A DNA stretch of 64,000 bases, taken from NCBI GenBank assembly GCA_002256025.1, contig NKIB01009402.1, forward strand, positions 1-64,000. Direction: 5' to 3'. The first letter of the stretch is position 1, and every line of letters starts with the position of its first letter. The notes beneath the pieces were generated by a model. That model ran no database searches. It was given only the letters and a program-made list of their open reading frames with translations, and was not told the origin of the DNA. Below are positions 7,383 to 58,600 of this stretch, piece after piece. Both the position numbers and the translations under genes were made by a program. Source of the stretch: Asterionella formosa (taxonomy: Eukaryota).

Positions 7383-9191
7383 TTATTTCTTGGATGCAAT
7401 GTACATGACATAGATCAAGTCACCGTCTTCATGTGCCTTTCGTCGCTTTTCATTCTTCTTCTGAATCATTATCCCTTGCCGCCATAGTCTAATCAGACGT
7501 TTCGTGGCGGGATACTTATGTCCAACTCGAAACTCAAGCCATCGTAACCCGTTGGCAAACCACTTAGTACGATCGAATCTCCATTTGCTCCACCACGACG
7601 CGGGAATGAAAAAGTCATCCACCAATTGAGGCATACTGTATTCTAATCCAAGATCACGAGTCACTTGAACAGTTAATCCGTAGGTTGTCAAAATGCCAAC
7701 CAACTCTGAATGTGTCAAATGGTCCTTCGTGTACCACGAACGTCGTGGTGATTGCCGTTCATGTTCTACTTCAATTCCACCGGCAGTATCATTTACCTGC
7801 AGTCGCGGAGAATGGATCACATCAGTCACAATAATTACAATCCCATTCATGACCAAGTGTTCAGTCAATTTTTTGAATTTTTCATTTGGAACTTGCAAAA
7901 TGTGCTCGACACAAAGAATGACATCGAATTTTTGTTGTTCAGGTAATTCCAATTGCGCCAAATCACGTTGAAAGAATGCTCGTCCGTCCAATTGGACGTC
8001 GTGTCGTTCCAGCAAATCCAAGGCTGTCTTAGTTTCGACTGGTGAAAAGGTAATACCTTCATAATCCAACCCATAATTATCAAACTTTCCGGGTAACATG
8101 GCGTAAAAGAAGGATCCCACCCCACAACCAACATCAAGAATACGAAATACATTCCCACTCACTCTCGCTGATAGAATTACTTGTCGAATCATCTGCATAA
8201 GTATCGAGTCTCCCAACCATTGCAACTCATGTGGATGATTTTTGTTTGATTGTATCTTATTTCGTTTACTCTTTCTTCGTGAATTGGTAGTCAGGACAGT
8301 GTGTGCAGCATAAGGGGCATGGCCCCATGGATCCATCTCTTGATGGCGACTTTTAATCTTGGCCATGTGCGTCATGATTTGTTGTCGACTTTCACGAGGG
8401 CATCGATTTATAGTACAAGACATGGATGGTGGTGTTTTTGCAAGATAATCTTTTAATAAAAACCAAGTCATGGCTTCACTGGTTTCACAGATGCGTTTAG
8501 AATTCAATGACGGCATTTCGTTGCACGGTACGAAATTTTTTCCATACTCCTGTTGATTCTCAATTCCAACAAATCCCAACACTTGAATGGTATGAATGAT
8601 GGAACGCAGAGATTGTATGACTGTTCCAGTGGCTGTTGCTCCCACAGCAAGAAGCAAACAGCACATTTGAAATCGAAAGTTTGATGCTCGACTAGTGATT
8701 CTCTGAAGTGCTTGCTTTCTCATTGTCATGGTAAAGAGTAGCAATTCTGATGGAGATGGCAGTGGATGATTATTTTTCGTTTGGTCTTGTCGTTGTTGCG
8801 CCATAATCAAACCTGACAAAAGGAGTGGTGTAATGGCTCGCCTCAACCTTTTTTCCGATTTCTTGTGATTGTTGCTTTGGCAGTCCTTTAGATATTCCAT
8901 TGCTTTTTGGAAAAGAAAGCCACTTGTTTTTAATAGGGACGATGTTTCCAATGGTTCCAAAAGCAATTTCTTATTCCCTGTTGCTTCTTCTAATCTTACA
9001 GCAAGGGCGATGACATGGTATGGATCTGGATCATCCCAATCAATGTTGTTGATGGTGTTGATATTGGCTGAGAGTGGAGTAGCAGTGCGACGGTTCTTAG
9101 TAACAGTAGGTTCAGCTGTACGTCTACTACTCAATTTACTAGTTCTAGCACTACGGGAAGGATCAAGAGGAGGACTGGTGGTGGTGGACAT
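7383..9191 (-). CDS. Class I SAM-dependent methyltransferase with long N-terminal, partly hydrophobic extension
   Basis: 602-aa ORF with motif I RILDVGCGVGS, YEGITFSP and FDVILCVEH. Confidence 0.8.
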   Translation of the reverse strand: MSTTTSPPLDPSRSARTSKLSSRRTAEPTVTKNRRTATPLSANINTINNIDWDDPDPYHVIALAVRLEEATGNKKLLLEPLETSSLLKTSGFLFQKAMEYLKDCQSNNHKKSEKRLRRAITPLLLSGLIMAQQRQDQTKNNHPLPSPSELLLFTMTMRKQALQRITSRASNFRFQMCCLLLAVGATATGTVIQSLRSIIHTIQVLGFVGIENQQEYGKNFVPCNEMPSLNSKRICETSEAMTWFLLKDYLAKTPPSMSCTINRCPRESRQQIMTHMAKIKSRHQEMDPWGHAPYAAHTVLTTNSRRKSKRNKIQSNKNHPHELQWLGDSILMQMIRQVILSARVSGNVFRILDVGCGVGSFFYAMLPGKFDNYGLDYEGITFSPVETKTALDLLERHDVQLDGRAFFQRDLAQLELPEQQKFDVILCVEHILQVPNEKFKKLTEHLVMNGIVIIVTDVIHSPRLQVNDTAGGIEVEHERQSPRRSWYTKDHLTHSELVGILTTYGLTVQVTRDLGLEYSMPQLVDDFFIPASWWSKWRFDRTKWFANGLRWLEFRVGHKYPATKRLIRLWRQGIMIQKKNEKRRKAHEDGDLIYVMYIASKK

Positions 9192-9653
9192 TATATATCA
9201 TGGTGTGTATGGTTGTTGTGAATTCCTGAATGATGCTGGTGTGATGAGATAGCTATTTGGTTGTCTGCCTTGCTGATCTCAACAAAACAATCACACAATG
9301 AAGATGTACAGTATCTTAATAATAGGAATTGGCATTGATTTATACATACACATGCATAAACACAATCCAATATACCGGTATTGGTATGTACATACCGGTA
9401 TACCTGGTTCAAAATTACCGGTAGTATGATACCAGCAATAGACCATGATCATTCCAGCAACGGTACCAGGTACCGGTACAGAAATTGGAAAGCCAGCAGC
9501 ATACGATTTGTGTATCATCGTATAAAGAGAATGCCTCATTCTCGTCCAAAATCTTGACGCAGCACGCACCACACTGCATCGCTATAAATGACTCCACACC
9601 TTGTCATTGTCATTGATGAGAGTTGTTGTTGTTATTATTAGGAAGTATTACAT

Positions 9654-24947: not shown

Positions 24948-26405
24948 TCAAGTTAGCGTACCTTTGGACCGAACAAGGTCCAATGGTTTTTGCTTGAATA
25001 ATGGCATTTTTCTCATGGGTGACGCCATGACACCCAAAAAATGTTTCAGTTCCTCCTTGACGATACTTCGTTTTCGGGTGAAGTCTTCTACACCAGCGTG
25101 TTCGTGCATCAACGCTTCGGCTTGGTGCGACGTTTGAAAATTCTTCTTTACGGCAGAGGCTTCAGATGAAATTTCCGATGTAATGGTTGGGGCCGTTTTG
25201 AGGGAAGATTGGCCAACCAAAGTGCCGACAGTAATAATGCTACCACCACAAGATGGAGACCGTAACAAGCGTTTGCGGTTACCCAAAAGGTGATCTTCAT
25301 CATGGTGGGAGGTCCAAGAGGCGTGGTCCTCGTAATTACGAGTATTGACTTGACCATCAATGACTAAGTTTTCGATTGGCAAGGGCGGTAACGACGGTAA
25401 GGATGGAAAGGAGGTGTGGCGTACATGTCTACTCATTGTCGGTCTCGGAACAACTGGGGATTCTCCGGTGGTTGATAGTGGAGGGGGAGCATTACGAAAT
25501 TTTAATGGAACAAAGTGTTCTTCAAAGTTGTCGATAGCGTCACAAGCATAATCATTCACCAGGATAGGACTATTCGAGATCATAACTTCCGAGGGAGGCA
25601 TTTTGGTACATAGCGTAGACACCGCGAAAGCATCGCGGCGTGCCATAATCACGGAATCTTCATCTTTCGAAAGCCCCGAGACAATTGATAATTCATCCCC
25701 TTTCTGGCATTCTCGATCGTAGGAGTGACCCACATTGCGATTGCCTCCATTACGGATGACAGCCGTCTCTTCCGTGTCTAATCGTTGTCTAATTCCTTGA
25801 GAGGGCAATGGCGATGCAAACCGATTACGGATGACGGCCGTCTCGTCCGTGTCTAATCGTTGTCTAATTCCCTGAGAAGGTAACGGCGATGTAAACCCAT
25901 TGCGGATGACGGCCGTCTCTTCCGTATCGAATCGTTGTCTAATTCCCTGAGAAGGTAATGGCGATGTAAAACCATTGCGGATGACGGCCGTATTGTCCGT
26001 ATCGAATCGTTGTCTATTTCCCTGGGAAGGTAATGGCGATGTAAACCCATTGCGGATGACGGCCGTCTCTTCCAAATCGAATCGGTGCCTATTTCCATGA
26101 AAGGGCACTGGCGACGGAAACCCTCTGACATAAAAAGGCGAATGATTCATTCTATTATCAGAATTGGTTGATGGCAATTCTTGATGTGAACATTTTTTTG
26201 TCTTCTTATGTTCATCATAAAATGATTCTCGTTGCTGTTGCTGTTGATGTGGACTTTCCACTGAAATGCGATCGTTACTCCTTTCGCTCATGGCGACGGC
26301 AGTGTATTTGGTCAATGATGAATCGTATTTGTTGTGTTTGGTAAAGATGGATCTCGTCTTGTTTCGTCTTGACGATGACTTCAATGAATCTTGATATGCT
26401 GGCAT
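24948..26405 (-). CDS. Hypothetical disordered protein with five 25-aa tandem repeats
   Basis: 485-aa ORF with an internal repeat GFTSPLPSQGxRQRFDTEETAVIRN. Confidence 0.75.
   Translation of the reverse strand: MPAYQDSLKSSSRRNKTRSIFTKHNKYDSSLTKYTAVAMSERSNDRISVESPHQQQQQRESFYDEHKKTKKCSHQELPSTNSDNRMNHSPFYVRGFPSPVPFHGNRHRFDLEETAVIRNGFTSPLPSQGNRQRFDTDNTAVIRNGFTSPLPSQGIRQRFDTEETAVIRNGFTSPLPSQGIRQRLDTDETAVIRNRFASPLPSQGIRQRLDTEETAVIRNGGNRNVGHSYDRECQKGDELSIVSGLSKDEDSVIMARRDAFAVSTLCTKMPPSEVMISNSPILVNDYACDAIDNFEEHFVPLKFRNAPPPLSTTGESPVVPRPTMSRHVRHTSFPSLPSLPPLPIENLVIDGQVNTRNYEDHASWTSHHDEDHLLGNRKRLLRSPSCGGSIITVGTLVGQSSLKTAPTITSEISSEASAVKKNFQTSHQAEALMHEHAGVEDFTRKRSIVKEELKHFLGVMASPMRKMPLFKQKPLDLVRSKGTLT
25749..26123 (-). 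repeat. Coding tandem repeat, 5 x 75 bp
   Basis: Five in-frame copies with high nucleotide identity read directly. Confidence 0.95.
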
Positions 26406-27108
26406 AAAGGGAAATAGTCAGTCGTCTTATTGCTGGATTAATTTTAACGGAGTTCAGTCGTTCGTTATTGGACAGGTGAATCCTATACTCGCTATTTTGT
26501 TAGGAGTTGGACAAATATTTGATCCACGTGAAAATATGGTACTTAAATTTAATATAACCAAATCAGGAAAAAGTGAGGTCTTCCTTTCCGTTTCGTCTGT
26601 CTCATTTTGCACGATTGTGACACACATAAACACGACCACGATATCGTCGCTAACTGAGACATGGAATAGCGCGCCACGACATCACCCCCCTGAAAAATTC
26701 GAATTTGTTGTCGTGGATGGGTGGTTTATGCCGAAGATGGTGTTCGCATAAAATAACGTCCAACATGTAATGCTGAATTTGGGCAAATTGACAGACATCG
26801 TATGTTATGGCCAACCAAAAATATAAGTGTGGATCCAAAATATTAAGCCGACATGACCAACCTTTACGCACGTATGTAGATCGCCTCTTTTTGATATTCA
26901 CATGTAGGTACCAGGGCACTCCTATTTAAAACCTCCTGGCACAGATGGTGATGCTGTGATAAAAACAGAAAAAATATTAAAACAGGGCATCCAACGAGAA
27001 GCAAAGGAGCAAATCATCAATAAACTCACACTGTAACATCAATTCGCATCACAAGCGAAGGAACGAAAAAGGATAACAAAGCCACGAGAATAGTCATCAC
27101 AGAGCATC

Positions 27109-45418: not shown

Positions 45419-46041
45419 CCACAGATTGTTGGATTGAAGTGACAGGTTTCAAGATACCTCACTGACGAATAGGAGCAACGATTTGGAAGTTGTCATTAAA
45501 AAAGGTCAATATGAAATAATGGACAACGAAATCAGAGCTGATGGTGTTTTCTGGATGAAAGAAGTGACACTACGTTTGTCACAAATTCTGAAGGAATAAT
45601 CACTCCTGCTATTTTGCCGGCACGGTAGTGAATAAACCAAGGGAAAACTGTTGATGCAAAATAATGAAATTAGAATGCCTCCCAAAATTGAGATGAGTTC
45701 CATGAGACTTTGCATTTTACGTATTGAGCGTGATGCCTGCATGAAATGACTCTATATACAATGGTCTTTTAAATTGTTTCAAAATCCTAGCTTGTAGGCA
45801 CTTGTGAGTTGCTTCTTTTCGAGAAAACTATAGAGTACAAAAGTGACTACAAGTTCGATCATAGAAAAAAATATCTTTTCAAATGGTTATCACACCAACC
45901 AGACTGATACAAGGATTTCCATCTCTGTACAAGCAACATTTAAACTGAGATTTGTATGTTTTCAAGCAAACAACACCGCCACATAATGTCATGTGTGGTT
46001 TTGAGAAAATTCAGACCTGAAAACGAAACTATCTCAATTGA

Positions 46042-48079
46042 TTAATAAAATGTTCTGGCCCTCCTAGTTAGCAAGAACAAACCTGTGCAACGAAAGAAAA
46101 GAAACGATGCAAGTAAAACCAACCAATACCACCAAACATCATCCGAAACAACATTTAGAGTCATCATAAGGTAGTGACAACTCAAGTTCCCGAATGGCGA
46201 TCCACAGTCTCTATTGAAATTTTGTTCCACATGAAGCTTGACTCCATAGGTAAGCGGCATGACATATTGCAGCCATCTCAGCCATGCTGGGATATTTGAT
46301 GGTTGAATGCAGAAGCCAGCAAAAAGAATTTGAGGAACAAAGACCACTGGAAGAAATTCAATTCCCGATCCGGCATCATGTACGCCGGATCCAATCATCA
46401 CGGCAATCGCTGTAGAGGTCATGGCAAGGGAGTAGATAATGAGATAGTGCCAGCCAAAGCCAAGTTGAAACTGCATCATGAAGTATGACACGAGAGCCAA
46501 GAGAAACATCTGAATCGCCGTCAACGATCCTTCCACTACAAGTCGGGACATAAAATAGGCGACGGTTGTGTAGTGGTTAGTGGAATACTCTCGTATGAAT
46601 ACCGGCCGCTCTTGGGGAAAGACAATAAGTGAGGGTAACGCAGTACCGAACATGGACACCATCAACACAATAATTTCCGCTCCAAACTGAGACTGGATAT
46701 TTTCATTGACTGCAGGATCTGTATTTCCCACTTTAAAAAATATACATCCAGTTAAAAAAGACATAGTTGTTGTGAGACAAAGGCGATATCCGATAATATG
46801 TGGATCTCGACTTATGGCTACAAAATCTCTTTTAAGCAACAGTCTGATTTGAACGCCGACACTGACGTGATTGGCGGATTGAGATGGCTTCCCCAACACA
46901 ATCTTTTCCAATACAGTAGATGGCTCAATCTGGTCGGTTATATCATTCTCATAGAAGCCCAACTTCTCCAAGTCTTTGTCAGGAACAGATTGCGCTACGA
47001 TCATTATCCAATCAGCGGGATTATATTTTGGAGGTAACGGTTGTTGCCGAGTTCCGAAGTAGTCTGGTACATCTTGGACACTGCCGTTGTACATAACTCG
47101 CCCTTTGTTGAGTAGAATTAAATGATCAAAGGATTCGAAAATGTCGGATGCTGGCTGGTGAATAGTGAACATAACAGAAGCTCCAGCGTTGGACATCTTC
47201 TTCAATACCTGGCACAATTGGAGAGCACTGAACGAATCGAGACCTAATAGCCACGCACAGTGCAATTAGGTCGATTGTTGCAGTGGTAGTCTACAGGTGA
47301 GTCGATTTTTTTTAACATACCGAGTAATGTTTAGCATAGCCAAAGAATAGTGTACGCACCGCTTGTCGGCTCGTCGAGGAACACCATGGATGGTTTCGTA
47401 ACAAGCTCAACACCAACACTGGTTCTCTTGCGCTCGCCTCCAGAAATACCCTTCAGTAAGGCCCCACCAACAATTGTATCCGCACAATCACAGAATCCCA
47501 ATTCTTCCAACATTTGTGTAGTCAAACGATCCAATTCATCATCTGTAGTTTCCTTGGACAATCTTAGTTTGGCGCTGAATCGAAGACTTTCTCGAGGCGT
47601 ACTAGCAATATGAAGACTGTCGTCTTGAGAAACAAAAGCAATCTGCTGCCTGATCTCCAACGAAGCTGGGTTGACGGCACAATTGTTGAGGCGCACATCA
47701 CAACGGACAGTCAATGTACCCCGTGTGACACTCCGACCCGACAAAACATTCAGCAAGCTTGTCTTTCCCGATCCACTGGGTCCCATAATGGCTGTGGTCT
47801 GTTGGGCAGGAACTTGACCAAAAACATCATTTAAGATTACTTTGTCAGTTTTCCCAGCTTTCTTGGAAGCACTGAAAGGCATTTGAGGCATTGAATTAGT
47901 AAAGTGACGAGGAATCATCAATCTCCTAATAGGTCAATTAGCACGGCAAATTCTCACACTTTCATTTGAACTTTGCTCCAAGTTAAACATTTCCCTTCTC
48001 GAGCCGCAAAAGGATTATCACGTCTTCCAGATTCGATATCTGCTGATTTAATGGGTTGACACTGTATGTTACGGAACAT
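46042..48079 (-). CDS. ABCG (White family) half-transporter, copy 1
   Basis: Exons 48079-47958, 47871-47360 and 47243-46042. Walker A GPSGSGKT, ISGGERKR, FLDEPTSGLDS (joined across intron 2), TIHQP, and a C-terminal ABC2 membrane domain. Confidence 0.93.
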
Positions 48080-49394
48080 TTTATTAATGATATGGAAACG
48101 ACTGTTTTCAAAGAACCAACTGATGTGCAATGCAGCTGACTAATTTTCGGAAATTATGGGCCTTCACATCATTTTGACATCAATTGTCAGTGGTCACCTC
48201 CAATTAGCGACTTTTCCTCAGGTTCCCATTGTAATTTGCATTGGCTTCTTAAAATGGCTTCTCATGATTTTATGGTCAAGAAAATTGTTTACTATACTAT
48301 CATACGAAAAATCTGCCCTACGGTTGTCACGATAAAAGTAGGTTCTTATTAGTCTTGTGTCTGTCTACCGGGTACATCTACCAACTCAAGTGCCGCACTC
48401 CTATTGATAAGAAGGATTCACAAGGCCCTTAATGCGAAGGTCATGTGGTGTCTAACATTGATATGGCTAATAGATCTTAGAGGTACCCGGTGCATATACA
48501 TATACCGGTATACCAATAGGCTACTTGCCCTTGGACGTTTTAATGCCTAATCAGAGCTCAAACTTCTTGCTTTGACAATATATAAAGCACTTTGGTTACC
48601 AATTTGGTGAAAAGGATTTGACAATAGCGATTTGGCACTACCAATTTGGAGATACCAATCACGAGTATTATAGGTGACATCACTGAATACACCATCATAA
48701 CCTTTTGTAGCAATCTAGGCCCCAGATGTTTGAGAGCTCAATGAGGGTGATCCTGAAGTTCTGCTGCACCATCAAAAGTGGAATATTTCTGGGAGGTATT
48801 CTGATAGAAGAAAAAAAGATTTATCAATTTTTTTATTATGTAGAATACAGAATTCTGGGAGTACAAATGGTGAAGCAAATGTAGTATTTCCCTCGTCACT
48901 CCCTCCTGCCTCTATGTTGAGAGTTACCATGTTGATGAACAACACTAATATTTTGCCAGCATGGTAGTAAAAATTACAAATAGTAGTAGAATGCCTCCTA
49001 AAAGTCAAAGAGTGTTCCATTGGATTTTGCATTTCACTTATTAAGGGTAATACTTGCATGAAATGACTCTATCTACAATGGTCTTTTAATTATTTCAAAA
49101 TCCTAGATAAAAAGCACTATATGGTCAATTGTTTATTTTTGATAAAACGATTAAGTACAAAAGTCACTACATAGTAAATTATAGGTAGTAAAATATGACT
49201 TACTAAAAGGTTAAAATGTCTAGTAGTAGACTGAAACATAAAGGATTTGCATCTCTAAACAAGCAATAAATAGACTGAGAAATGCCTGGTGCCAAGCAAG
49301 CGACGCTGCCACAGAGTGGAATGTGCGGATTTGAGAAAATACCAGAGCTGGCAACAAAATTATCTCGATGAACAAATCATGTGCATTCAATTGA

Positions 49395-51461
49395 TTAAAA
49401 GAATGTATTGGCCTTTCTTCTGAGCAAGAACAAACCTGTACAACGAAAAACAACAAATAATGACAGCATGACCACCCAATACCACCACACATCAGATGCA
49501 ACCACATTTAAGTTACTCAAGAGTTTTTGACAATTCACATCTCCAAGTGGTGATCCACAGTTTCTATTGAAATTTCGTTCCACATGCAGCTTGACTCCAT
49601 AGGTAAGCGGCATGACATATTGCAGCCATCTCAGCCATACTGGGATGATTGAAGGCTTTATGAAGAAACCAGCAAAGAGAATTTGTGGAACAAAGACCAT
49701 TGGGAGAAATTCAATCGCCGATCCTGCATCGTGCACACCAGATCCGATCATCACGGCAATTGCTGTAGAGGTCATGGCAAGGGAGTAGATAATGAGATAG
49801 TGCCAGCCAAAGCCAAGCTGAAACTGCATCATGAAGTATGACACGAGAGCCAAGAGAAACATCTGGATCGCCGTCAACAAACCTTCAACTACAAGTCGGG
49901 ACATAAAATAGGCAACGGTTGTGTAGTGGTTGGTAGAAAACTCTCTCAGGAAAACTGGTCGCTCTTGGGGAAAGACAATAAGTGAGGGTAACGCAGTACC
50001 GAACATGGACACCATCAACACAATAATTTCCGCTCCAAACTGAGACTGGATATTTTCATAGACTGCAGGATCTGTATTTCCCACTTTAAAAAATATACAT
50101 CCAGTCAAAAGAGACATGAAGGACGTGAGGAAAAGGCGAAATCCGAGAACACGTGGATCTCGTCTCATAGCTGCAAAATCTCTTTTAAGCAACAATCTGA
50201 TTTGAACGCCAACACCGACGTGATTGGCGGATTGAGATGGCTTCCCCAACACAATCTTTTCCAATACAGTAGATGGCTCAATCTGGTCGGTTGTATCATT
50301 CTCATAGAAGCCCAACTTCTCCAAGTCTTTGTCAGGAACAGATTGCGCTACGATCATTATCCAATCAGCGGGATTATATTTTGGAGGTAACGGTTGTTGC
50401 CGAGTTCCGAAGTAGTCTGGTACATCTTGGACACTGCCATTATACATAACTCGCCCTTTGTTGAGTAGAATTAAATGATCAAAGGATTCGAAAATGTCGG
50501 ATGCTGGCTGGTGAATAGTGAACATAACAGAAGCTCCAGCGTTGGACATCTTCTTCAATACCTGGCACAATTGGAGAGCACTGAACGAATCGAGACCTAA
50601 TAGCCACGCACAGTGAAATTAGGTCGATTGTTGCAGTGGTAGTCTACAGGTGAGTGGATTTTTTTTCAAACATACCGAGTAATGTTTAGCATAGCCAAAG
50701 AATAGTGTACGCACCGCTTGTCGGCTCGTCGAGGAACACCATGGATGGTTTCGTAACAAGCTCAACACCAACACTGGTTCTCTTGCGCTCGCCTCCAGAA
50801 ATACCCTTCAGTAAGGCCCCACCAACAATTGTATCCGCGCAATCACACAATCCCAATTCTTCCAACATTTGTGTAGTCAAACGATCCAATTCATCATCTG
50901 TAGTTTCCTTGGACAATCTTAGTTTGGCGCTGAATCGAAGACTTTCTCGAGGCGTACTAGCAATATGAAGACTGTCGTCTTGAGAAACAAAAGCAATCTG
51001 CTGCCTGATCTCCAACGAAGCTGGGTTGACGGCACAATTGTTGAGGCGCACATCACAACTGACAGTCAATTTACTCCGTGTGACACTCCGACCCGACAAA
51101 ACATTCAGCAAGCTTGTCTTTCCCGATCCACTGGGTCCCATGATGGCTGTGGTCTGTTGGGCAGGAACTTGACCAAAAACATCTTTTAAGATGACTTTGT
51201 CAGATTTCCCCTTTTCCTTTGAGGTACTGAATTGTTTATAGAAGGAAAAAATTTCTAATGAGTACAGTGTGACTAAAGTAATCTACGGCAAACAGGCGAA
51301 AGCCAATCATTACGGCAACGTTATACTCACACTTTCATTTGAACGTTGCGCCATGTTAAGTACTTGCCCTCGCGTTGAGCAAAAGGGTCGTCACGTGCGC
51401 CAAACTCGACATCGACTCCTTCCAGCGGTTGAGATGTTTGGCTATGAAAGATTTCTGTCAT
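49395..51461 (-). CDS. ABCG (White family) half-transporter, copy 2 (tandem paralog)
   Basis: Exons 51461-51331, 51226-50715 and 50596-49395, with the same motifs and intron positions as copy 1. Confidence 0.93.
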
Positions 51462-52180
51462 AGTTAAACGCCCTTTTTAAACTGAATAGGTCAAGCAAGG
51501 TTTGGAAAGGCGATGCGAAGAAACAGGCCGACACAAGCACTGACTTTTGGTGGAGAAGAAGATAATGAAGGCAAAAGTAGATTCACTTGTTGATAATCGC
51601 TTTACTTTTCTTGTGGTGGTGTCATAGAAATTGTACCAAAAGGGAGTATACAAACCAGCATCGTTCTGCTACTCCATCGAACATATGACTCTCTATCATA
51701 CATAGGTATTATACCAGTACCGGCACTTTCTCCGAAATAGGTTGAAACAGAGAAAGAACTACCGGCATCCATTCGTAAATTCAACTGCCCATCGGAATTT
51801 GCACCAACACAATTGCACTACAATTTGCACCACTTTTCTTAGGGTCGTTCCTATCATTCCGAGAAACCAGAATTGCACCATCTTAAATTAAATCCGTGCT
51901 ACCGTTCTGCCTGCATGATATGTGCTGTATCATGCCGCGCTGCTCAGATATTATATGGATTCAAGGTTCCTGCATTTGATCACCTAGCTCGAGGTAGGGT
52001 TAAAAACAAATAATGAGTCAGACTACTCAAACACGTACTTTTCATTTATAACTTAAAAATGTATAACGCTCTTCGGAGCTTTTCACCATTAGACACCCTT
52101 TCCATAGTATGCTTACGACATGTACAGTCTTCGGACAAAGTAGGGTGTAGGTCCACTCTGTATATCGTAAGGATATAGGA

Positions 52181-52306
52181 TCTGGCGAGAAAGTGCAGAA
52201 AGGAACTTGGGTTTTTTAGTTTGCTAAAAAGGCTTGAAAACTCGGGGAAAACTTTTTATTTGGTATAGTAAAAAACTGAGTTTCTTTTCTGCACTTTCTC
52301 ACCAGA
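52181..52306. repeat. Long imperfect inverted repeat (MITE/foldback-like)
   Basis: TCTGGCGAGAAAGTGCAGAAAGGAACTTGGGTTTTTTA ... TAAAAAACTGAGTTTCTTTTCTGCACTTTCTCACCAGA, with arms of about 38 bp and few mismatches. Confidence 0.85.
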
Positions 52307-52359
52307 ACAAGGTATATTATACTGATGCTATTTGAGGTTACCTATGTTTTGAAATTGCC

Positions 52360-53370
52360 CTCCAATTGGCCTTTTCTACAGTCTCCAAAATATTGGAATC
52401 AGAATGACTATGAGCTGACAACATCATCATCAGAATTGTATTTATGTGCCAGAATATTTAGTCCTAAAATCTCCTGTTCAACGAATTCCATTGTAAGTGG
52501 TGCCAACTTCCAGATCATATATAACATGATTGTTGGTCAATGTGAATAACTTACCTCCATGTTATTATCCTGATCTGCAGGGCATTTCAAACCTATTCTG
52601 GCCACACTTGATGCACGTGTATCTTCTTTGGGTGTGTTTGCCAGTGCTGTCATATCCACTACCATATCCATACGATTAATAATATAATACTTTTTGCCTT
52701 GATGATATAATGGACATAGTGCGTTTCTATTTCACTCATGATTATTCTGGCTGCAATAAATTTTTAGCCGGAGACAATCTTTTTTTGATGGAAGCTCGAG
52801 GGAGACCAGGCCATTGGATTTCAAAAAGGCAGGGCGGAGAAGTATAAGGACCCTGTGCAATGGATCGGGACGAAACAGCGGTTCTGGAACATGTAGTGGA
52901 AAGCAGCCTTTGTTGGGTTTATTTTTTCCTTTTGGTGTCCTTGGCGATTCAAATGCAGGCTGTAGAATTAATAAATCCTTATATGATCATTTGGAGACAG
53001 CTCGAATTGTAGAATCATCATCACAGAAGATTGTAGAGTGGATAAGATTGTAGTAACAATATTATTGCCAGCATAAATAATACTGTTTAAACAACAGCAA
53101 TCAAGCAATCGATCAATTCACCAATTCACGTTCATGACGACCTTAAAATCGAAGTCCATGGCACACCAGTATGCCTCCAACTTCTCAATCAGAGCCTCCA
53201 CAACATCAGGTCTATGCATGGTGAGCTGGAGTTCAAGTTCAGATCTTGAATCCAAGGCATGGTAGGTATGCTTTTGTTGTCCTGCTCACCATGAAAATTT
53301 CTGAATTCTTTCCTCAGTAATTCCCTCATTTCACAAACACTTTCTAACACTCGTTAAATGGTCCATTACC
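52360..53370 (-). mobile_element. Probable decayed Mutator-like transposase remnant
   Basis: Minus-strand translation of about 53045-52830 gives STIFCDDDSTIRAVSK*...PRTPKG...FPLHVPEPLFRPDPLHRV, resembling the D-D-D-S...D-P-x-H-R catalytic segment of Mutator-like transposases. It is interrupted by stops. Confidence 0.5.
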
Positions 53371-54886
53371 ATCCTTGCACAAAAGTGTTTCTAAATGCAA
53401 AATGGTTGGGGTAATTAGACTGGTACACATTTGCAGTGATGGGCATGGCTGTATTGTACTGTACATCCTGGGATTTCACTCAGTTATGATTGTCATTATC
53501 AGTACTCCTTACCAGAGTACCCTGGTACCAGCACCACGTAACTGTATATGCATGCGTCAAGAAGCAGCTGGTAAACTATGTTGGATATTTAATTATTGGT
53601 ACTGGTACACGGAAACATACTGGTATGTACAGGGCATATGTACATAAAGAATAGCGGTAATAGAAAAACCGATATGCAGGTTGTCCCAATTGTTCTAGTC
53701 GTGTAAAGGACAAGCCGCAGTGTAAACAAATATGTCTGTATTTGTGTCTATATTTTCCTTCAAAATGACCTGCTCAAGATTCCATTGAAAAATTAACAAC
53801 ATCAATCAGTACGTACATGATAGTAAGTACAAAATTATTCCTTAAGGTATTTTCTTGCATTTTGAGATGTTGCGCCCTCTCCAAGATTTCTATTGCTCAA
53901 GTTTTCTCATCTATTTCAACCATTGATAGAAATAATTATCTAGGAAAAGTTATTAAGCTAGTAATTTGCGGACTCAGCGATGTCTCTACTTTGTTCATAT
54001 CTTAAAAACTGAGCAAATGACGACGAAATCAAATTCTAGCAGCAATTTCAAATTTTTGTTGTCAATATGCGTTAGTCCGGAATTTTATTATTATTGAACA
54101 AATTACCTCGTCTATGTTAGAATAGATCATGTACGAAATAGCAATAACTCATTGTCAATTTTTTGTGGAGAGAATCAGTCCAATAATTTCGTCATGGTCA
54201 AGCAGACAGAGCTTCAACCATGTAATTTGGTTTGCATTTGTTAATCTTGATTTGAGTTTGTTAATGTTTATGATTCAATGTTGTAGGAGACTATACTGGT
54301 GCACATGGCTGATAATGCCGATGGCTGATGAACGAGAATTTTTCAAAATGATTCCTTGCTGACGTCATGTCATTGCTGCACCACATTGCACCACCATAGA
54401 CCTACTGTGACTCCTTATAAGAATGCCAGGTCAGGTAGTACTCTGGGTAACTGGTACCGTATATCTACAATATATAAATAAGAATTTGTGATTTTGTAAG
54501 AAACTCTTGTTCTTTAAGGTAAATATAGTTACTCCGAGTAATACCTATGGGCAAACTATATTTTTGTCGCATAATATACTATTGAATAAAATATAAAGAC
54601 ATGGCTCAAAAAGATCACTACAGAGAAACCATCAATCCAGCCAATGATATGGAATTGGAACATAGAGAAAACATCTGGTGGCAGCAGATACTGTCTTTGT
54701 ATCCTTGAAGTGCAGGGCAGAATTTGAATGTGCAGCAAGGCTGCAACACAACTGAAAATATTGCTGGAATGCTGCAGGATTTGTATAGTTGAGCATTTCA
54801 CATCAACCTCAAACTAATATGGTTTAACTTCTTAGGTTTTAAGGGCTGGAGAAAAAGTGGAGGGTCTACCGAACCCAAAAGCTGAC

Positions 54887-55792
54887 CTAATGCTTTGTTG
54901 CCACAACCTTCTGATACACTCCGTCGCATAAGAGTTCTTTATGGGCGCTCATGTTTTCGGGAAGCCAATCCACAATCTCGTGATACCAAAGATCCTTTGC
55001 GTAAGGTTCATAGGCTATAAAGTTTGCTGTCATCCAAATTTTATGCCACATGCTTTTTGGACGGTGAAAGTCCACCAAGACCAACTTTCCTCCCGGTTTC
55101 AGCACACGGGCCGCTTCTTTCAATGCTTGGATTCTTGCACTGTTGGGAATTTCGTGTAGTAGGAAGAAAATGACAGCTTGATCGAAGGAATCGTCCTCAA
55201 ATTCAAGATCTTCGGCGGCGGCACACGACAAAGAAACATTTTCCAGTTTGCTGTCCACCTTTCTCTTTAGGTTTTCCACCTGACCAGGGACAGCATCAAT
55301 GACATTCAAGGATGCGTCTGGTGTCATGCGCCGCATCAGTTTTTCCGTGAAATTCCCATACACACAGGCGATCTGTAGGGTACGACCATGAATCGATCCA
55401 TTCGCGTCTCCGATTCCATCAAAGACGGTATCTTGGAGCAGTGTGGCATGTCCCCACAAGACCATGTTGACAAGATATTGCCTATCCAGCGCTCGAATGG
55501 CCATGGGGTTCACGTAGGCCCACCAGTACCCATCGTTAAGGTACTTTGGGACGACGTAAGCAGTCGCAGCTGCTTCGTTGTTGGGAAATACGCTGACATG
55601 CTGTGGCTCAGCAGCGGCAGGGCTTGACTGCCACCGGCAGGTCGCGTTCCAATGGGAATTCTGTGGTCGTTGCCACGGCGCAGTGGTTGCGGATGCCATC
55701 ATATTTCTTGGGGAAAAGCTTGGGCGATACAGTGCTGCCATACTGACACGATGCGGCTGACGTGCTATGACATGGGAACACTTGGACATCAT
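54887..55792 (-). CDS. rquA: Rhodoquinone biosynthesis protein RquA (methyltransferase-like) with mitochondrial presequence
   Basis: VPKYLNDGYWWAYVNP..R.LDRQYLVNMVLWG, the atypical SAM motif TLQIACVYGNFT, FFLLHEIP, YEPYAKDLW and GVYQKVVA. The Arg/Ser-rich, acid-free N-terminus ends in RWQSS. Confidence 0.9.
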   Translation of the reverse strand: MMSKCSHVIARQPHRVSMAALYRPSFSPRNMMASATTAPWQRPQNSHWNATCRWQSSPAAAEPQHVSVFPNNEAAATAYVVPKYLNDGYWWAYVNPMAIRALDRQYLVNMVLWGHATLLQDTVFDGIGDANGSIHGRTLQIACVYGNFTEKLMRRMTPDASLNVIDAVPGQVENLKRKVDSKLENVSLSCAAAEDLEFEDDSFDQAVIFFLLHEIPNSARIQALKEAARVLKPGGKLVLVDFHRPKSMWHKIWMTANFIAYEPYAKDLWYHEIVDWLPENMSAHKELLCDGVYQKVVATKH

Positions 55793-56279
55793 CTTGCACG
55801 ACGAAGAAAGGATGAGATATTTTTTTGGAGTTCGTGAATTTTGTGATTTCGTTCATAATGTATGTATACCGGTATTTTATAGTATTGCTCTTAGTCGGAA
55901 CAAATATCGGTACCAGGTACAGTAATATATAGATGAAGACCACTGTATGTGGTACTGGTAGTAGCTGTAAATCGATGATGAGAACCGTGAGACCTGAAGT
56001 ATTTATTACCTGGGGGGTATACACAATACTGTCGCACCATCAAATCGTACAGTCAGTTGAATGTTGAATGTATACCAGTTGCAGGCTACCTGCTGGTACT
56101 GCTATACCAGTTTTTTATATTTTACAACTTTTAAACTTCAATTAGAGTCCACAGGTAGGCGGCAAAGTAGAAATGATACTGTGCGTTCTAACTTTTGGAT
56201 AGAGATTCGGCACTGTACTTTTTGAGCCGGTAGAGAACATCTGCATACGTCACGTTTTGTTCGTTGAACCAAGTTTGTT

Positions 56280-56345
56280 GTGATGCAGAATCTGATTATT
56301 GTTAGCAAACAGGTGATGCAGAATCTGATTGTTGTTAGCAAACAA
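56280..56345. repeat. 33-bp tandem duplication
   Basis: GTGATGCAGAATCTGATT(A/G)TTGTTAGCAAACA(G/A) occurs twice. Confidence 0.9.
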
Positions 56346-56993
56346 GCAAAGTGCGATGTTCTGTTTACATATGCACAACGTACGGCCATTCAGTACATGG
56401 TACACCAATTAAATGAAGCTCCTGGTATGTTTGTACGTTTTCTTTAGCTACAGTGCAAAATAGATGTGAGATTTGCTTGTGTAGTGTTCCGCTCATCATG
56501 CACCAGAATCTACCGTGAGATTCAAGGGCAGGTGCGCAGTATGATTGATATCATACCTGTGTAATCAGTCTTACATTTATTGAGGTATTCCAGTTCACAT
56601 GATAATGAAAAGACTAATAACCTTCCAGAAAACATTGATACCGTGGATTCATTGACAAATCAACACATCTAGGTCTCCTCTCCCTCCACCTCCAGGGAAG
56701 ATGGATGAATACGAAAACGACCATCGATCGTTGCAATGTAAATGGTTCCTTCAGTCTACCAGCAATGTGCGCTAATCATGCCTGTATTAACATTGAAAGC
56801 ATCTATGAAGTTGTCAAAACTCCGCGTGTATACTCAAGTGAGGATATGCTGAAAGTCTTTTCAAAGGCCTTGGAATCTGAAACTCTACTTAATGGTGAAG
56901 ATATCGTATGCAAGACAGAATCTTAAAGTCCCTCTATATCCGAAATGGTCTTCAGGAGGCGCATGGTGGTATTGGCCCAGCACACCACATCTT

Positions 56994-57428
56994 TCAATCC
57001 CAATGATTGTTTGCACTGGAGGGAATTGTAAGGATAATCTCATCCAACTCCATCAGCGCCTCATTCAACTTGACTTGACAGCCAAGTCTGGACGTTTTAT
57101 GTGGTTCAAAGGCAATGTCTAGCATATCTTGCTCTGTCCCTTCCGGTTCACCCCCAAGCGCTTCAAACGTCTTGTCATCCAGGTAAACATGGCAAGTACA
57201 ACATGCCATTGTCCCCGAACAGGCTCCTTCAATATGGTGTGATAGTAATTCATTTTCCAGTGCCAGATCGAGAATCGACTGACGTGCTCTCCATTTAATA
57301 TCAACGGAAGTATGCTGGTGAGGAATATGAACTTTAACTATCTTGTGGCTGACATTTCGCAACGTGGTAGTAGATGCGGAGCTGGATGCCATTGTCATCA
57401 TTCTCACGATTGTCCTACAGAGCGGCAT
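56994..57428 (-). CDS. Adrenodoxin-type [2Fe-2S] ferredoxin, probably mitochondrial
   Basis: IEGACSGTMACCTCHV, EQDMLDIAF, SRLGCQV and an acid-free N-terminal extension. The start is placed at ATG 57428, since an (ATGAA)n microsatellite lies just upstream. Confidence 0.9.
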   Translation of the reverse strand: MPLCRTIVRMMTMASSSASTTTLRNVSHKIVKVHIPHQHTSVDIKWRARQSILDLALENELLSHHIEGACSGTMACCTCHVYLDDKTFEALGGEPEGTEQDMLDIAFEPHKTSRLGCQVKLNEALMELDEIILTIPSSANNHWD

Positions 57429-57790
57429 GAAATGAAATGAAATGAAATGCAACGCTCAGTAGATGTTGTTGAACGAATGAAGCACCAATCCGCCGTTTAT
57501 CACGATACTTATTATTCTTTCAACTTGTCAACCAAGGAAGAAACCCAGGTCGTCGTCCCACTTTCTGGTTGCTAAATCACATCCAATGTGAAGTCGACAA
57601 AATGTACCGAGATGTTACACGCTATTTTATTTTTGTGGGTGTTAGTGTAAAAATAGAGAACATCATGTACCGGTATATTAATTATATATATATAATATAT
57701 ACCGGTAGCTATGCTCTTTCTTCTTATGTACCGGTAGGACACATTGTTATATTACTCATTCCTCTGCTTTTCTCAAACTGATGAGCCACC

Positions 57791-58600
57791 ATGGAGACTT
57801 TGCAAAACCTACCAATCTGGATCCTTTGGGGCCTCGGCTGCCTACTCCTTCATACTCTGTCGTACCTCCTTTCTGTGTATGTGCTCCCGAACGGCCCATG
57901 GACCAAGCTACCTTCATTCACGGCGCATCAAGTGGTAGCCATGCCGTTCATGGTGTACCTCACGGTGTTGGGCTTCCAAGAATGGTTCGGAGGTACCACG
58001 TGCGCTGATCCGGTGCTGCATATCAATGAGAATGGGCTCTACCTGTCTCGAATCGTCATTGGAAGCATGCTGCTCTGGGATATTCCCACTGGATTCGTTA
58101 CTGACGGTATGGGCGATCCCATAATGCACTTTCACCATTTGGGCATGCTACTGGTATCTGGCATCACCGCCGGCGTCTTTTCGTCACAACCGATCGGTTC
58201 GTGCTATGCCCCATTCTTCTTTGGTGTTGTTGAACTATCCTCCATCCCGCTGGCCATTGTCGATATCTTTCATCCAAAGCAGAAGGCATGGCATGACTAC
58301 CATCTCACGTCCTCACCACTCAAGGCATTGAATGAAATATCTCGAATTATGTTTGCTCTATTGTACATTCTTGTGCGGGCTATTTATTTCCCCTATGTCG
58401 TTGTAACTCAAGTACTTCCAGAATTTTATCGAGCCACTACTGACATGGATACTCCTGATACAGATGCACCTGCCCTGTGGGCGATTATGATGTTTTCCTT
58501 GTTGTTTACAGGATTGCAAATGTACTGGGGATCCTTGGTCATTAAACAGATTATCAAGGCATTGGGAGGGGATGGGTCTGACAAGACAAAGAAAGAATAA
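57791..58600 (+). CDS. TLC (TRAM/LAG1/CLN8) domain membrane protein
   Basis: Multi-TM protein with LWD, MHFHH, GVVELSSIPL, FALLYILVRAIYFP and LQMYWGSLV. Confidence 0.85.
   Translation: METLQNLPIWILWGLGCLLLHTLSYLLSVYVLPNGPWTKLPSFTAHQVVAMPFMVYLTVLGFQEWFGGTTCADPVLHINENGLYLSRIVIGSMLLWDIPTGFVTDGMGDPIMHFHHLGMLLVSGITAGVFSSQPIGSCYAPFFFGVVELSSIPLAIVDIFHPKQKAWHDYHLTSSPLKALNEISRIMFALLYILVRAIYFPYVVVTQVLPEFYRATTDMDTPDTDAPALWAIMMFSLLFTGLQMYWGSLVIKQIIKALGGDGSDKTKKE

What the first reader, a model, noticed from the sequence alone, without database searches (positions are those of the whole stretch)
54887..55792. Mitochondrion-targeted RquA: rhodoquinone-based anaerobic respiration potential in a photosynthetic eukaryote
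Seen: an intronless ORF with the RquA-type N-terminal YWWAY...LVNxxLWG block, the non-canonical SAM motif LQIACVYG, and a presequence of about 55 aa that is Arg/Ser/Ala-rich, lacks acidic residues and ends in RWQS. Established: RquA converts ubiquinone to rhodoquinone, which supports fumarate reduction under low oxygen. It is patchily distributed in eukaryotes through lateral transfer from bacteria. Inference: this alga can run RQ-dependent fumarate respiration, for example in dark or anoxic sediment or in resting stages. The gene lies beside a TE-remnant region (52-54.5 kb), which would fit an insertion site. As far as I recall, rquA transcripts have been reported from a few diatoms, so the novelty is the genomic locus and physiology more than the family.
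Basis: partly seen in the sequence, partly recalled or inferred. Interest (0 to 1): 0.85.

Follow-up and report, generated by a model that had tools for sequence, protein, structure and literature searches.

The report
Diatom nuclear gene for rhodoquinone synthase
A freshwater diatom carries an intact, intron-free nuclear gene for RquA, the enzyme that makes the low-oxygen electron carrier rhodoquinone, with a mitochondrial-looking leader; this gene family was already reported in diatom transcriptomes, so it is a solid but largely expected find.

Summary
A 301-codon ORF lies at 54887-55792 on the minus strand. It matches NCBIfam's RquA equivalog model end to end at 230 bits against a cutoff of 175; UbiE models score 57-60, far below their cutoffs. 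In a rooted tree it sits in the RquA clade (100/100 against UbiE), inside a clade of 11 sequences that mostly carry long N-terminal extensions. The host is a diatom: every named dymeclin hit is a diatom, and the neighbouring genes are eukaryotic. RNA-library contigs are collinear with the gene and show no splice joints. The 80-residue extension is basic, has no acidic residue before position 62, has no signal-peptide core and is predicted disordered.

Stairs et al. 2018 already reported a diatom RquA group with a predicted mitochondrial signal, so this is a new member of a known kind.

Two caveats apply:
- The "TE remnant" next door found no support.
- The protein is the only one of 216 with Ala at a conserved Asp/Asn, inferred to contact SAM, so activity needs testing.

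Earlier scan notes on rquA concern bacteria only.

The parts
54887..55792 (-). rquA coding sequence, 301 codons plus stop, single exon
   Evidence: ORF list and translation. NCBIfam NF038261 RquA equivalog at 230.4 bits against a cutoff of 175, E 2e-68. RNA-library contigs are collinear with no joints.
55553..55792 (-). N-terminal extension, residues 1-80, absent from bacterial RquA: putative mitochondrial presequence plus linker
   Evidence: The HMM match starts at residue 81. First Asp/Glu at residue 62, net charge +5 over residues 1-40, highest 12-residue hydropathy 0.54, so no signal-peptide core. AlphaFold block pLDDT is 44-60 with no secondary structure. MMSK aligns with MVSK at the start of the closest relative P0003.
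54890..55552 (-). RquA catalytic domain, residues 81-301, class I SAM-dependent fold
   Evidence: Covers HMM positions 1-218 of 218. Block pLDDT 86-98. Foldseek top hits are class I methyltransferases, including SAM-bound yeast Coq5 4obw.
55514..55528 (-). YWWAY motif, residues 89-93
   Evidence: Invariant in the 21-, 9- and 66-sequence alignments.
55451..55474 (-). LVNMVLWG block, residues 107-114, followed by His115 where 213 of 216 sequences have Asn
55355..55381 (-). Non-canonical motif I, TLQIACVYG, residues 138-146
   Evidence: T138 L139 Q140 C143 V144 Y145 are invariant. The wording matches the Group B type printed in the supplement of Stairs et al. 2018 (compared by eye).
55295..55297 (-). 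Asp166, the post-motif-I Asp, inferred equivalent of R. rubrum RquA D118
   Evidence: Asp in 216 of 216 RquA sequences. The role of D118 is from Neupane et al. 2022. The equivalence is inferred from motif position.
55217..55219 (-). Ala192, at the column inferred to equal R. rubrum D143 (adenine N6 contact in Coq5)
   Evidence: The column holds Asp in 197, Asn in 18 and Ala in 1 (this protein) of 216 sequences. No RNA-contig variant is listed at this codon in the 4 runs laid.
54549..54886 (-). 3' untranslated region as covered by RNA-library contigs
   Evidence: Contigs of X7 (54549-55754) and X6 (54564-55754) run on past the stop codon. Contigs cannot fix the true end.
55793..55829 (-). 5' untranslated stretch covered by RNA-library contigs; contains no ATG
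   Evidence: One X11 contig reaches 55829, 37 nt beyond the ATG. X6 and X7 contigs reach 55804. Sequence read; the nearest upstream ATG, at 55854-55856, is out of frame and beyond the covered stretch.

Best explanation
This is a nuclear, single-exon gene of a freshwater diatom, found in RNA libraries, that encodes a Group-B-type RquA.

Proposed mechanism (inferred from the family):
- The protein is made in the cytosol with an N-terminal extension of about 80 residues whose first part acts as a mitochondrial presequence.
- In the mitochondrion the methyltransferase-fold domain binds S-adenosylmethionine. Instead of transferring a methyl group, it uses SAM's alpha-amino group, with Mn2+, to replace a methoxy group of ubiquinone, giving rhodoquinone.
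- Rhodoquinol has a low enough potential for complex II to run backwards as a fumarate reductase. Complex I can then keep pumping protons when oxygen is missing, for instance in dark, oxygen-poor water or sediment.

Shown here: family membership, the eukaryotic nuclear locus, presence in RNA libraries and the leader's composition. Inferred: mitochondrial import, catalytic activity and physiological use.
For: Family:
- The NCBIfam RquA equivalog NF038261 scores 230.4 bits against a cutoff of 175 and covers the model at 1-218 of 218. The best UbiE-type models score 57-60 bits against cutoffs of 158-216.
- In the careful tree of 52 rows, 48 RquA rows separate from 4 UbiE rows at 100/100. The protein is sister to P0003 at 100/99. 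The quick tree of 69 rows agrees.
- The YWWAY, LVN..LWG and TLQ..CVY motifs are invariant or nearly so. Asp166 is Asp in 216 of 216 sequences.
- The model is a class I methyltransferase fold with SAM-bound Coq5 among the top hits.

Eukaryotic nuclear locus:
- Neighbours include PI-PLC with C2, ACBP-ankyrin, ABCG half-transporters split by short gaps, SET, PHD, TLC, dymeclin, AP sigma and L7/L30.
- All named dymeclin hits are diatoms. The best named one is Fragilaria crotonensis at 59%.
- GC3 is 0.528 against a host range of 0.38-0.55. The codon-usage distance is 0.110 against 0.059-0.139 for 14 host ORFs.

RNA: contigs of 4 of 4 RNA runs laid, from two studies and three of them poly(A)-selected, cover the CDS collinearly with no joints.

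Leader:
- No acidic residue before position 62, net charge +5, no hydrophobic core, predicted disordered.
- The 8 closest full-length relatives also carry extensions of 56-124 residues before the motif.
- Stairs et al. 2018 report predicted mitochondrial signals for every full-length eukaryotic RquA, including the Attheya sequence (scores 0.9969, 0.94 and 0.986).

Chemistry: Neupane et al. 2022, abstract and passages.
Against: - Ala192 stands where 215 of 216 RquA sequences have Asp or Asn. This column is inferred to equal D143 of R. rubrum RquA. A D118A/D143A double mutant made no rhodoquinone; the single mutant was not reported in the passages I read.
- The protein deviates at 15 of 76 columns that are at least 90% conserved. 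This is the most in the set, though its whole clade deviates at 9-14 (P0014 at 3). The deviations include N115H and R120Q.
- Its end branch is longer than its sister's, 0.39 against 0.22.
- No targeting predictor could be run. The Arg of the proposed RWQS cleavage site is not conserved in P0003.
- Only 1 of the 4 runs has a contig bridging the first ATG by 31 nt or more, and a database gene model starts at Met32 (P0002).
- No genome is held, so ubiquinone synthesis genes and complex II could not be examined.
- No rhodoquinone measurement in any diatom turned up in my searches.
Confidence: 0.65

Rival explanations
1. The gene is a true RquA homologue that is transcribed but catalytically weakened or changed. 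Loss of the conserved Asp/Asn at position 192, together with other lineage-specific changes (N115H, R120Q, G290D), lowers SAM binding or alters the reaction. Little or no rhodoquinone would then be made, or another product would be formed.
For: Ala192 is unique among 216 sequences. The protein has 15 of 76 conserved-column deviations, the highest count in the set. Its end branch is longer than its sister's. The double mutant that includes the equivalent Asp is inactive.
Against: The reading frame is intact. The invariant Asp166 and all signature motifs are kept. 18 of 216 sequences already tolerate Asn at this column. RNA contigs of three lake metatranscriptome runs list no change in codons 14-301. 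The gene is present in poly(A) libraries. Only a double mutant was tested in the paper.
Confidence: 0.2
2. The protein is an active RquA, but translation starts at Met31/32 or the extension is not an import signal. It would then act outside the mitochondrion.
For: A database gene model begins at Met32 (P0002). From Met31 the leader has a net charge of only +1. No predictor was run.
Against: The first ATG lies within the stretch covered by RNA contigs, and no ATG precedes it there. The N-terminus MMSK aligns with MVSK of the nearest relative. There is no signal-peptide-like hydrophobic stretch, which diatom plastid import would need (the plastid rule is recalled knowledge). Ubiquinone, the substrate, is mitochondrial, and Pygsuia RquA was localised to the organelle.
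Confidence: 0.1
3. The ORF is bacterial contamination or a chimeric assembly joined to diatom DNA.
For: The nearest non-eukaryote-type relatives are gamma- and betaproteobacterial, at 41-48% identity. The gene has no intron.
Against: It has eukaryotic genes on both sides in one window and host-like codon usage. Its 80-residue extension is absent from bacterial RquAs. It sits in a clade of 11 eukaryote-type sequences (100/95). Poly(A) RNA-library contigs from a second study run from the CDS into both non-coding flanks.
Confidence: 0.01
4. It is an ordinary UbiE/Coq5-type C-methyltransferase of ubiquinone synthesis.
For: Pfam finds only generic methyltransferase domains and Ubie_methyltran. Coq5 is among the best structural matches.
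Against: UbiE-type NCBIfam models score 57-60 bits against cutoffs of 158-216, while RquA passes its own cutoff. A branch of length 5 with 100/100 support separates it from UbiE. Motif I is the RquA type.
Confidence: 0.01

Closest known systems
Diatom group of Group B RquA: Attheya septentrionalis, Staurosira complex and Synedropsis recta, from MMETSP transcriptomes (Stairs et al. 2018, eLife, PMC5953543)
   Same: Same enzyme family and same host lineage (diatoms). Same LQ(V/I)ACVYG motif I and YWWAY block. Long N-terminal extensions; the Attheya sequence has a predicted mitochondrial signal. By eye, the clade-mates P0013 and P0028 closely resemble the Synedropsis fragment, and P0005 resembles the Attheya sequence.
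   Different: The published ones are transcript fragments without genomic context. Here the gene is seen in its nuclear locus, without introns, in a freshwater diatom. This protein is about 56-58% identical to its nearest relative found here and has Ala192, His115 and Gln120 at otherwise conserved sites. I did not align the published sequences with a tool.
RquA of Rhodospirillum rubrum (Neupane et al. 2022, Commun Chem, PMC9814641)
   Same: Methyltransferase fold, non-canonical motif I and the conserved post-motif-I Asp. This is the biochemically defined reaction: ubiquinone plus SAM, as amino donor, plus Mn2+ gives rhodoquinone.
   Different: It is a bacterial Group A protein with no targeting extension, and it has Asp at position 143, where this protein is inferred to have Ala.
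RquA of Pygsuia biforma, and rhodoquinone use in Euglena gracilis
   Same: Eukaryotic RquA acquired from bacteria. It works in mitochondria or related organelles, and rhodoquinone was detected there. Euglena shows that a photosynthetic eukaryote can use rhodoquinone and fumarate reductase.
   Different: Those are Group A genes of unrelated lineages. For diatoms I found no localisation or quinone data.
UbiE / Coq5 / MenG C-methyltransferases (TIGR01934, PF01209)
   Same: Same fold and a quinone substrate. Coq5 is a top structural match.
   Different: They have the canonical glycine-rich motif I and transfer a methyl group. This protein fails their HMM cutoffs and is separated from them in the tree.

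Membership tests
RquA (NCBIfam NF038261), evolutionary family | Full-length match to the curated equivalog model above its cutoff | tested here: met
   230.4 bits against 175, residues 81-300 on model positions 1-218 of 218, E 2e-68.
RquA (NCBIfam NF038261), evolutionary family | Placement inside the RquA clade to the exclusion of UbiE | tested here: met
   48 RquA rows against 4 UbiE rows at 100/100. The same split has SH-aLRT 99 with 9 outgroup rows.
RquA (NCBIfam NF038261), evolutionary family | N-terminal YWWAY and LVNxxLWG block | tested here: met
   Residues 89-93 and 107-114. YWWAY is invariant and LVN..LWG is at least 90% conserved. The next residue is His where 213 of 216 sequences have Asn.
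RquA (NCBIfam NF038261), evolutionary family | Non-canonical SAM motif I (TLQxxCVY in place of the glycine-rich motif) | tested here: met
   TLQIACVYG at residues 138-146, with T, L, Q, C, V and Y invariant. Stairs et al. 2018 state that motif I differs in RquA.
Catalytically competent RquA | Asp equivalent to R. rubrum D118 (ribose contact) | tested here: met
   Asp166 is Asp in 216 of 216 sequences. The equivalence is inferred.
Catalytically competent RquA | Asp or Asn equivalent to R. rubrum D143 (adenine contact). This is a conserved residue, not a defining one: 18 of 216 sequences have Asn. | tested here: not met
   Ala192, with the column holding Asp 197, Asn 18 and Ala 1. Only the D118A/D143A double mutant is reported inactive. 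This lowers confidence in activity, not in homology.
Catalytically competent RquA | Converts ubiquinone to rhodoquinone with SAM and Mn2+ | not testable with these tools
   Needs heterologous expression or LC-MS of quinones.
Mitochondrial presequence-bearing proteins | N-terminal extension over bacterial homologues that is basic, poor in acidic residues and lacks a hydrophobic signal core | tested here: met
   80-residue extension. First Asp/Glu at residue 62, net charge +5, highest hydropathy 0.54. Predicted disordered.
Mitochondrial presequence-bearing proteins | Amphipathic helix and a recognisable processing site | tested here: inconclusive
   The highest 11-residue helical moment is 0.60, at residue 7, within the range of its relatives (0.41-0.71). 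RWQS is present, but its Arg is not conserved in P0003.
Mitochondrial presequence-bearing proteins | Positive score from trained predictors, or experimental import | not testable with these tools
   TargetP, MitoFates and HECTAR are not available here.
UbiE / Coq5 / MenG methyltransferases | Match above the curated cutoff of the family models | tested here: not met
   TIGR01934 scores 59.8 against 158.35 and NF001244 scores 57.4 against 216.

The most novel reading that the evidence does not exclude
Rhodoquinone-dependent fumarate respiration is a working, so far unmeasured, survival route for dark and oxygen-poor periods in freshwater diatoms that are common enough to appear in lake metatranscriptomes. 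This lineage's enzyme works without the otherwise universal Asp/Asn adenine contact, so the RquA SAM pocket is more plastic than the single characterised enzyme suggests. A bolder add-on is that the divergent adrenodoxin-type ferredoxin 1.2 kb upstream on the same strand serves the redox step that the in vitro RquA reaction needs.
Probability: 0.4. Interest if true: 0.55.

Novelty: new member of a known kind. Interest (0 to 1): 0.3.

Why it matters
How diatoms survive dark, anoxic periods is still described as poorly understood (abstract of a 2026 preprint on Thalassiosira, seen in the listing). A diatom rquA gene fixed in the nuclear genome, and present in RNA libraries from lake water, gives a concrete and testable candidate: a rhodoquinone and fumarate-reductase branch of the mitochondrial chain.

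The locus also supplies something the 2018 survey lacked for diatoms, namely genomic context showing that the gene is not contamination. The unique Ala192 is a natural variant for testing which SAM contacts the unusual amino-transfer reaction needs.

The family, its lateral origin, its presence in diatoms and its predicted mitochondrial targeting are all already in print. The gain is therefore incremental.

Tried and rejected
- **TE remnant at 51.3-54.9 kb.** Of the 28 ORFs of 50 aa or more listed there besides rquA, I scanned 26. I left out two that overlap the 54556-54813 ORF in the rquA 3' region. None of the 26 reached E < 0.01 in Pfam, and none hit a transposase, reverse transcriptase or integrase. 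There was no Rfam match in 51000-58000. The only repeats were a 48-nt, 79% inverted repeat at 52181-52306 and a 32-nt tandem pair at 56280-56344. No window-wide repeat touches the region. The region stays unexplained; whether it is multi-copy could not be tested without a genome.
- **Whole genome.** None is held, so there was no search for paralogues, complex II or ubiquinone genes.
- **Synteny in other diatoms.** The metagenome scan returned 17 loci, all at 50% identity or less and without a long extension. No diatom-type locus was found.
- **Names of relatives.** The cluster look-up of the 10 eukaryote-type relatives gave no organism names and no NCBI or UniRef source. The protein atlas on the AP sigma neighbour gave no lineage information.
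- **Bacterial-type promoter and terminator scan.** It found 4 promoter-like sites against 6.2 expected, and the scan is not meaningful for a eukaryote.
- **RNA cover.** Bins 54000-54535 and 55876-56545 had no cover in any of the 4 runs. Contig ends were not used as transcript ends.
- **Run listing.** 16 of 24 rows hold half or more of the sampled words.
- **Earlier scan notes.** There are none for this genome or sequence. The 8 notes shown of 14 on rquA all concern bacteria.
- **Complex prediction.** None was run for RquA with the neighbouring ferredoxin, because adjacency alone does not justify it.

Full report
**Observation.** The window has a 301-codon ORF at exactly 54887..55792, on the minus strand. 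It starts at the first ATG after an in-frame stop.
- YWWAY at residues 89-93.
- LVNMVLWG at residues 107-114.
- LQIACVYG at residues 139-146.
- RWQS at residues 53-56.
- No acidic residue before Glu62.

**Family.** Pfam sees only generic class I methyltransferase domains and Ubie_methyltran. NCBIfam's curated RquA equivalog NF038261 matches residues 81-300 over the whole model (1-218 of 218) at 230.4 bits against a cutoff of 175, E 2e-68. The best UbiE/MenG models reach 57-60 bits against cutoffs of 158-216.

A database search gave 409 proteins at E <= 1e-10 among 1448 candidates, of which the best 120 were listed. Those that a source labels with a function are called RquA, UbiE-type methylase or SAM-dependent methyltransferase.

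For a rooted tree I took 80 named bacterial rquA loci and the UbiE genes of five of those genomes. The quick tree had 69 rows, including 5 UbiE and 4 other methyltransferases. The careful tree had 52 rows and 249 columns; for it I dropped the long-branched L081 and the 4 generic methyltransferases, and thinned the bacterial rows to save time. Both trees split RquA from the outgroup, at SH-aLRT 99 in the quick tree and 100/100 in the careful one. The protein is sister to P0003 (100/99). It lies in a clade of 11 eukaryote-type sequences (100/95), nested among gamma- and betaproteobacterial RquAs. P0010 and P0014 are short and probably partial.

**Structure.** AlphaFold2 with a 66-sequence alignment gives block pLDDT 86-98 for residues 81-301 and 44-60 with no secondary structure for residues 1-80. 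Foldseek's best matches are class I methyltransferases, with SAM-bound yeast Coq5 (4obw) second. No RquA structure is among the sequence matches in the PDB.

**Host and locus.** No genome is held for the window. The surrounding ORFs are plainly eukaryotic:
- PI-PLC X/Y with C2, ACBP with ankyrin repeats, and two tandem ABCG half-transporters.
- SET, PHD, TLC and DUF6824 proteins.
- Dymeclin, clathrin adaptor sigma, ribosomal L7/L30, Bax inhibitor, glutamine synthetase, GDPD and a deaminase.

Every named hit of the dymeclin search is a diatom: Fragilaria crotonensis at 59%, then Fistulifera, Amphora, Seminavis, Cylindrotheca, Mayamaea, Cyclotella, Nitzschia, Thalassiosira and a Chaetoceros-labelled entry. 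The host is therefore a diatom, and its nearest named relative in that search is an araphid pennate. I did not try to go further.

The rquA ORF has GC3 of 0.528 against 0.38-0.55 for 14 neighbouring ORFs. Its codon-usage distance to their pool is 0.110 against 0.059-0.139. Nothing marks it as recently arrived or foreign.

**RNA.** The stretch occurs in runs labelled freshwater, lake water or algae metagenome, including poly(A)-selected RNA libraries. I laid four RNA runs from two studies. All four gave contigs collinear with the gene:
- X6: 54564-55754.
- X7: 54549-55754.
- X11: 54678-55652 and 55623-55829.
- X15: 54973-55785.

There were no joints and no gaps. The covered stretch therefore has no intron, and the contigs run from the CDS into both non-coding flanks. 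The tool warns that contigs in an RNA library do not prove transcription and cannot fix ends. Only the X11 contig bridges the first ATG by 31 nt or more. No ATG lies between 55793 and 55829, and the next upstream ATG (55854-55856) is out of frame. Two variants in lake populations fall in codons 5 and 13 of the leader. None is listed in codons 14-301.

**Targeting.** The protein extends 80 residues beyond the start of the bacterial model. Residues 1-40 carry a net charge of +5, and the highest 12-residue hydropathy is 0.54, so there is no signal-peptide-like core. The eight closest full-length relatives have 56-124 residues before the YWWAY motif. The start MMSK aligns with MVSK of P0003, which favours Met1 over the Met32 start of a database model (P0002).

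This fits a mitochondrial presequence. It also fits Stairs et al. 2018, who predicted such signals for all full-length eukaryotic RquAs and localised the Pygsuia enzyme to the organelle. No predictor could be run here, and the proposed cleavage site is not conserved in P0003, so import remains an inference.

**Points against activity.** I aligned 216 RquA sequences: 120 database proteins and 96 locus ORFs, with some near-duplicates among them. There are 76 columns at least 90% conserved. This protein deviates at 15 of them, the most in the set (the median is 1). Most of its clade deviates at 9-14, with P0014 at 3. Much of this is clade-level divergence measured against a consensus dominated by bacterial sequences.

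Lineage-specific changes include N115H (Asn in 213 of 216), R120Q (Arg in 212 of 216) and G290D. Ala192 is unique, where 197 sequences have Asp and 18 have Asn. Asp166 is invariant. By motif position and the 25-26 residue spacing, I infer that Asp166 and Ala192 correspond to D118 and D143 of R. rubrum RquA. Neupane et al. 2022 place these in the SAM pocket, and their D118A/D143A double mutant made no rhodoquinone (abstract and passages read).

[quoted passage not shown] Rhodoquinol lets complex II reduce fumarate while complex I keeps pumping protons under hypoxia.

**Prior knowledge.** Stairs et al. 2018 place 'a diatom group' in Group B RquA. Their supplement lists Attheya septentrionalis, Staurosira complex and Synedropsis recta from MMETSP transcriptomes. 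The Attheya sequence scores 0.9969, 0.94 and 0.986 for mitochondrial targeting. They list genomic records with introns for other eukaryotes but none for diatoms. By eye, P0013 and P0028 closely resemble the Synedropsis fragment and P0005 resembles the Attheya sequence; I did not align them with a tool. Euglenids, which include photosynthetic species, are in their Group A, and Euglena's use of rhodoquinone is cited.

Four full-text searches gave no paper whose title or listed abstract reports rhodoquinone measured in a diatom, or a diatom rquA genomic locus. Of the returned papers I opened only those cited here. Three PDF supplements of Stairs et al. could not be read.

**The 'TE remnant'.** The 3.6 kb between the ABCG gene and rquA has no ORF above 99 aa. 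It has no meaningful Pfam hit (0 of 26 ORFs scanned at E < 0.01), no Rfam match and no repeats beyond one imperfect inverted repeat. The label is unsupported, and the region is simply unexplained.

**Verdict.** This is a genuine member of the already published diatom RquA group, now seen as an intron-free nuclear gene in a freshwater diatom. Mitochondrial import is likely. Catalytic activity is plausible but unproven, because of Ala192.

Noticed in passing
window 56994-57401 (-), ORF frame open to 57452: An adrenodoxin/Yah1/Etp1-type [2Fe-2S] ferredoxin gene lies 1.2 kb upstream of rquA on the same strand. Its best PDB matches are S. pombe Etp1 and yeast Yah1 (E 7e-18 and 1e-16). It has a basic N-terminus free of acidic residues, and only 35 database relatives at E <= 1e-5, the best non-self one at 62%. 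From recalled knowledge, Yah1 supports a ubiquinone hydroxylation step in yeast, so the adjacency may or may not be meaningful.
   Followed up: partly
window 57102-57188 and 57427: RNA contigs of three runs match the ferredoxin gene up to 57188 and then continue into unrelated sequence for 255 nt or more; one contig is 2747 nt long. This suggests a second transcript or paralogue sharing the cluster-binding stretch. Lake populations also carry a 10-nt deletion at 57427, upstream of the likely start codon.
   Followed up: no
window 46034-47933 and 49387-51282 (-): This is a tandem duplication of an ABCG-type half-transporter gene, with a period of about 3354 nt. Each copy is split into an ABC_tran ORF and an ABC2_membrane ORF by a gap of about 65 nt, probably an intron. 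One 300-nt stretch is 99% identical between the copies and another is 80%.
   Followed up: no
window 51300-54886: A 3.6-kb stretch of low GC (0.379 over 52-54 kb) has no ORF above 99 aa, no family match and no RNA family. It holds a 48-nt, 79% inverted repeat at 52181-52306.
   Followed up: partly
window 56280-56344: Two tandem copies of a 32-nt unit, 97% identical, lie in the intergenic region between the ferredoxin gene and rquA.
   Followed up: no
window 25747-26121: Four overlapping copies of a 150-nt unit at 75-nt spacing, meaning a 75-nt tandem array at 79-90% identity, lie inside a 489-aa ORF (24948-26417, minus strand) that has no Pfam family.
   Followed up: no
window 7383-9197 (-): A second, unrelated class I methyltransferase-domain ORF of 604 aa gives only weak generic Pfam matches, at E about 3e-6.
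   Followed up: no
window 55755 and 55780: Two variants in lake metatranscriptome contigs change codon 13 (Pro to Leu) and codon 5 (Cys to Ser) of the rquA leader. None is listed in codons 14-301, whereas the neighbouring ferredoxin region shows 16 listed variants (56863-57607).
   Followed up: partly
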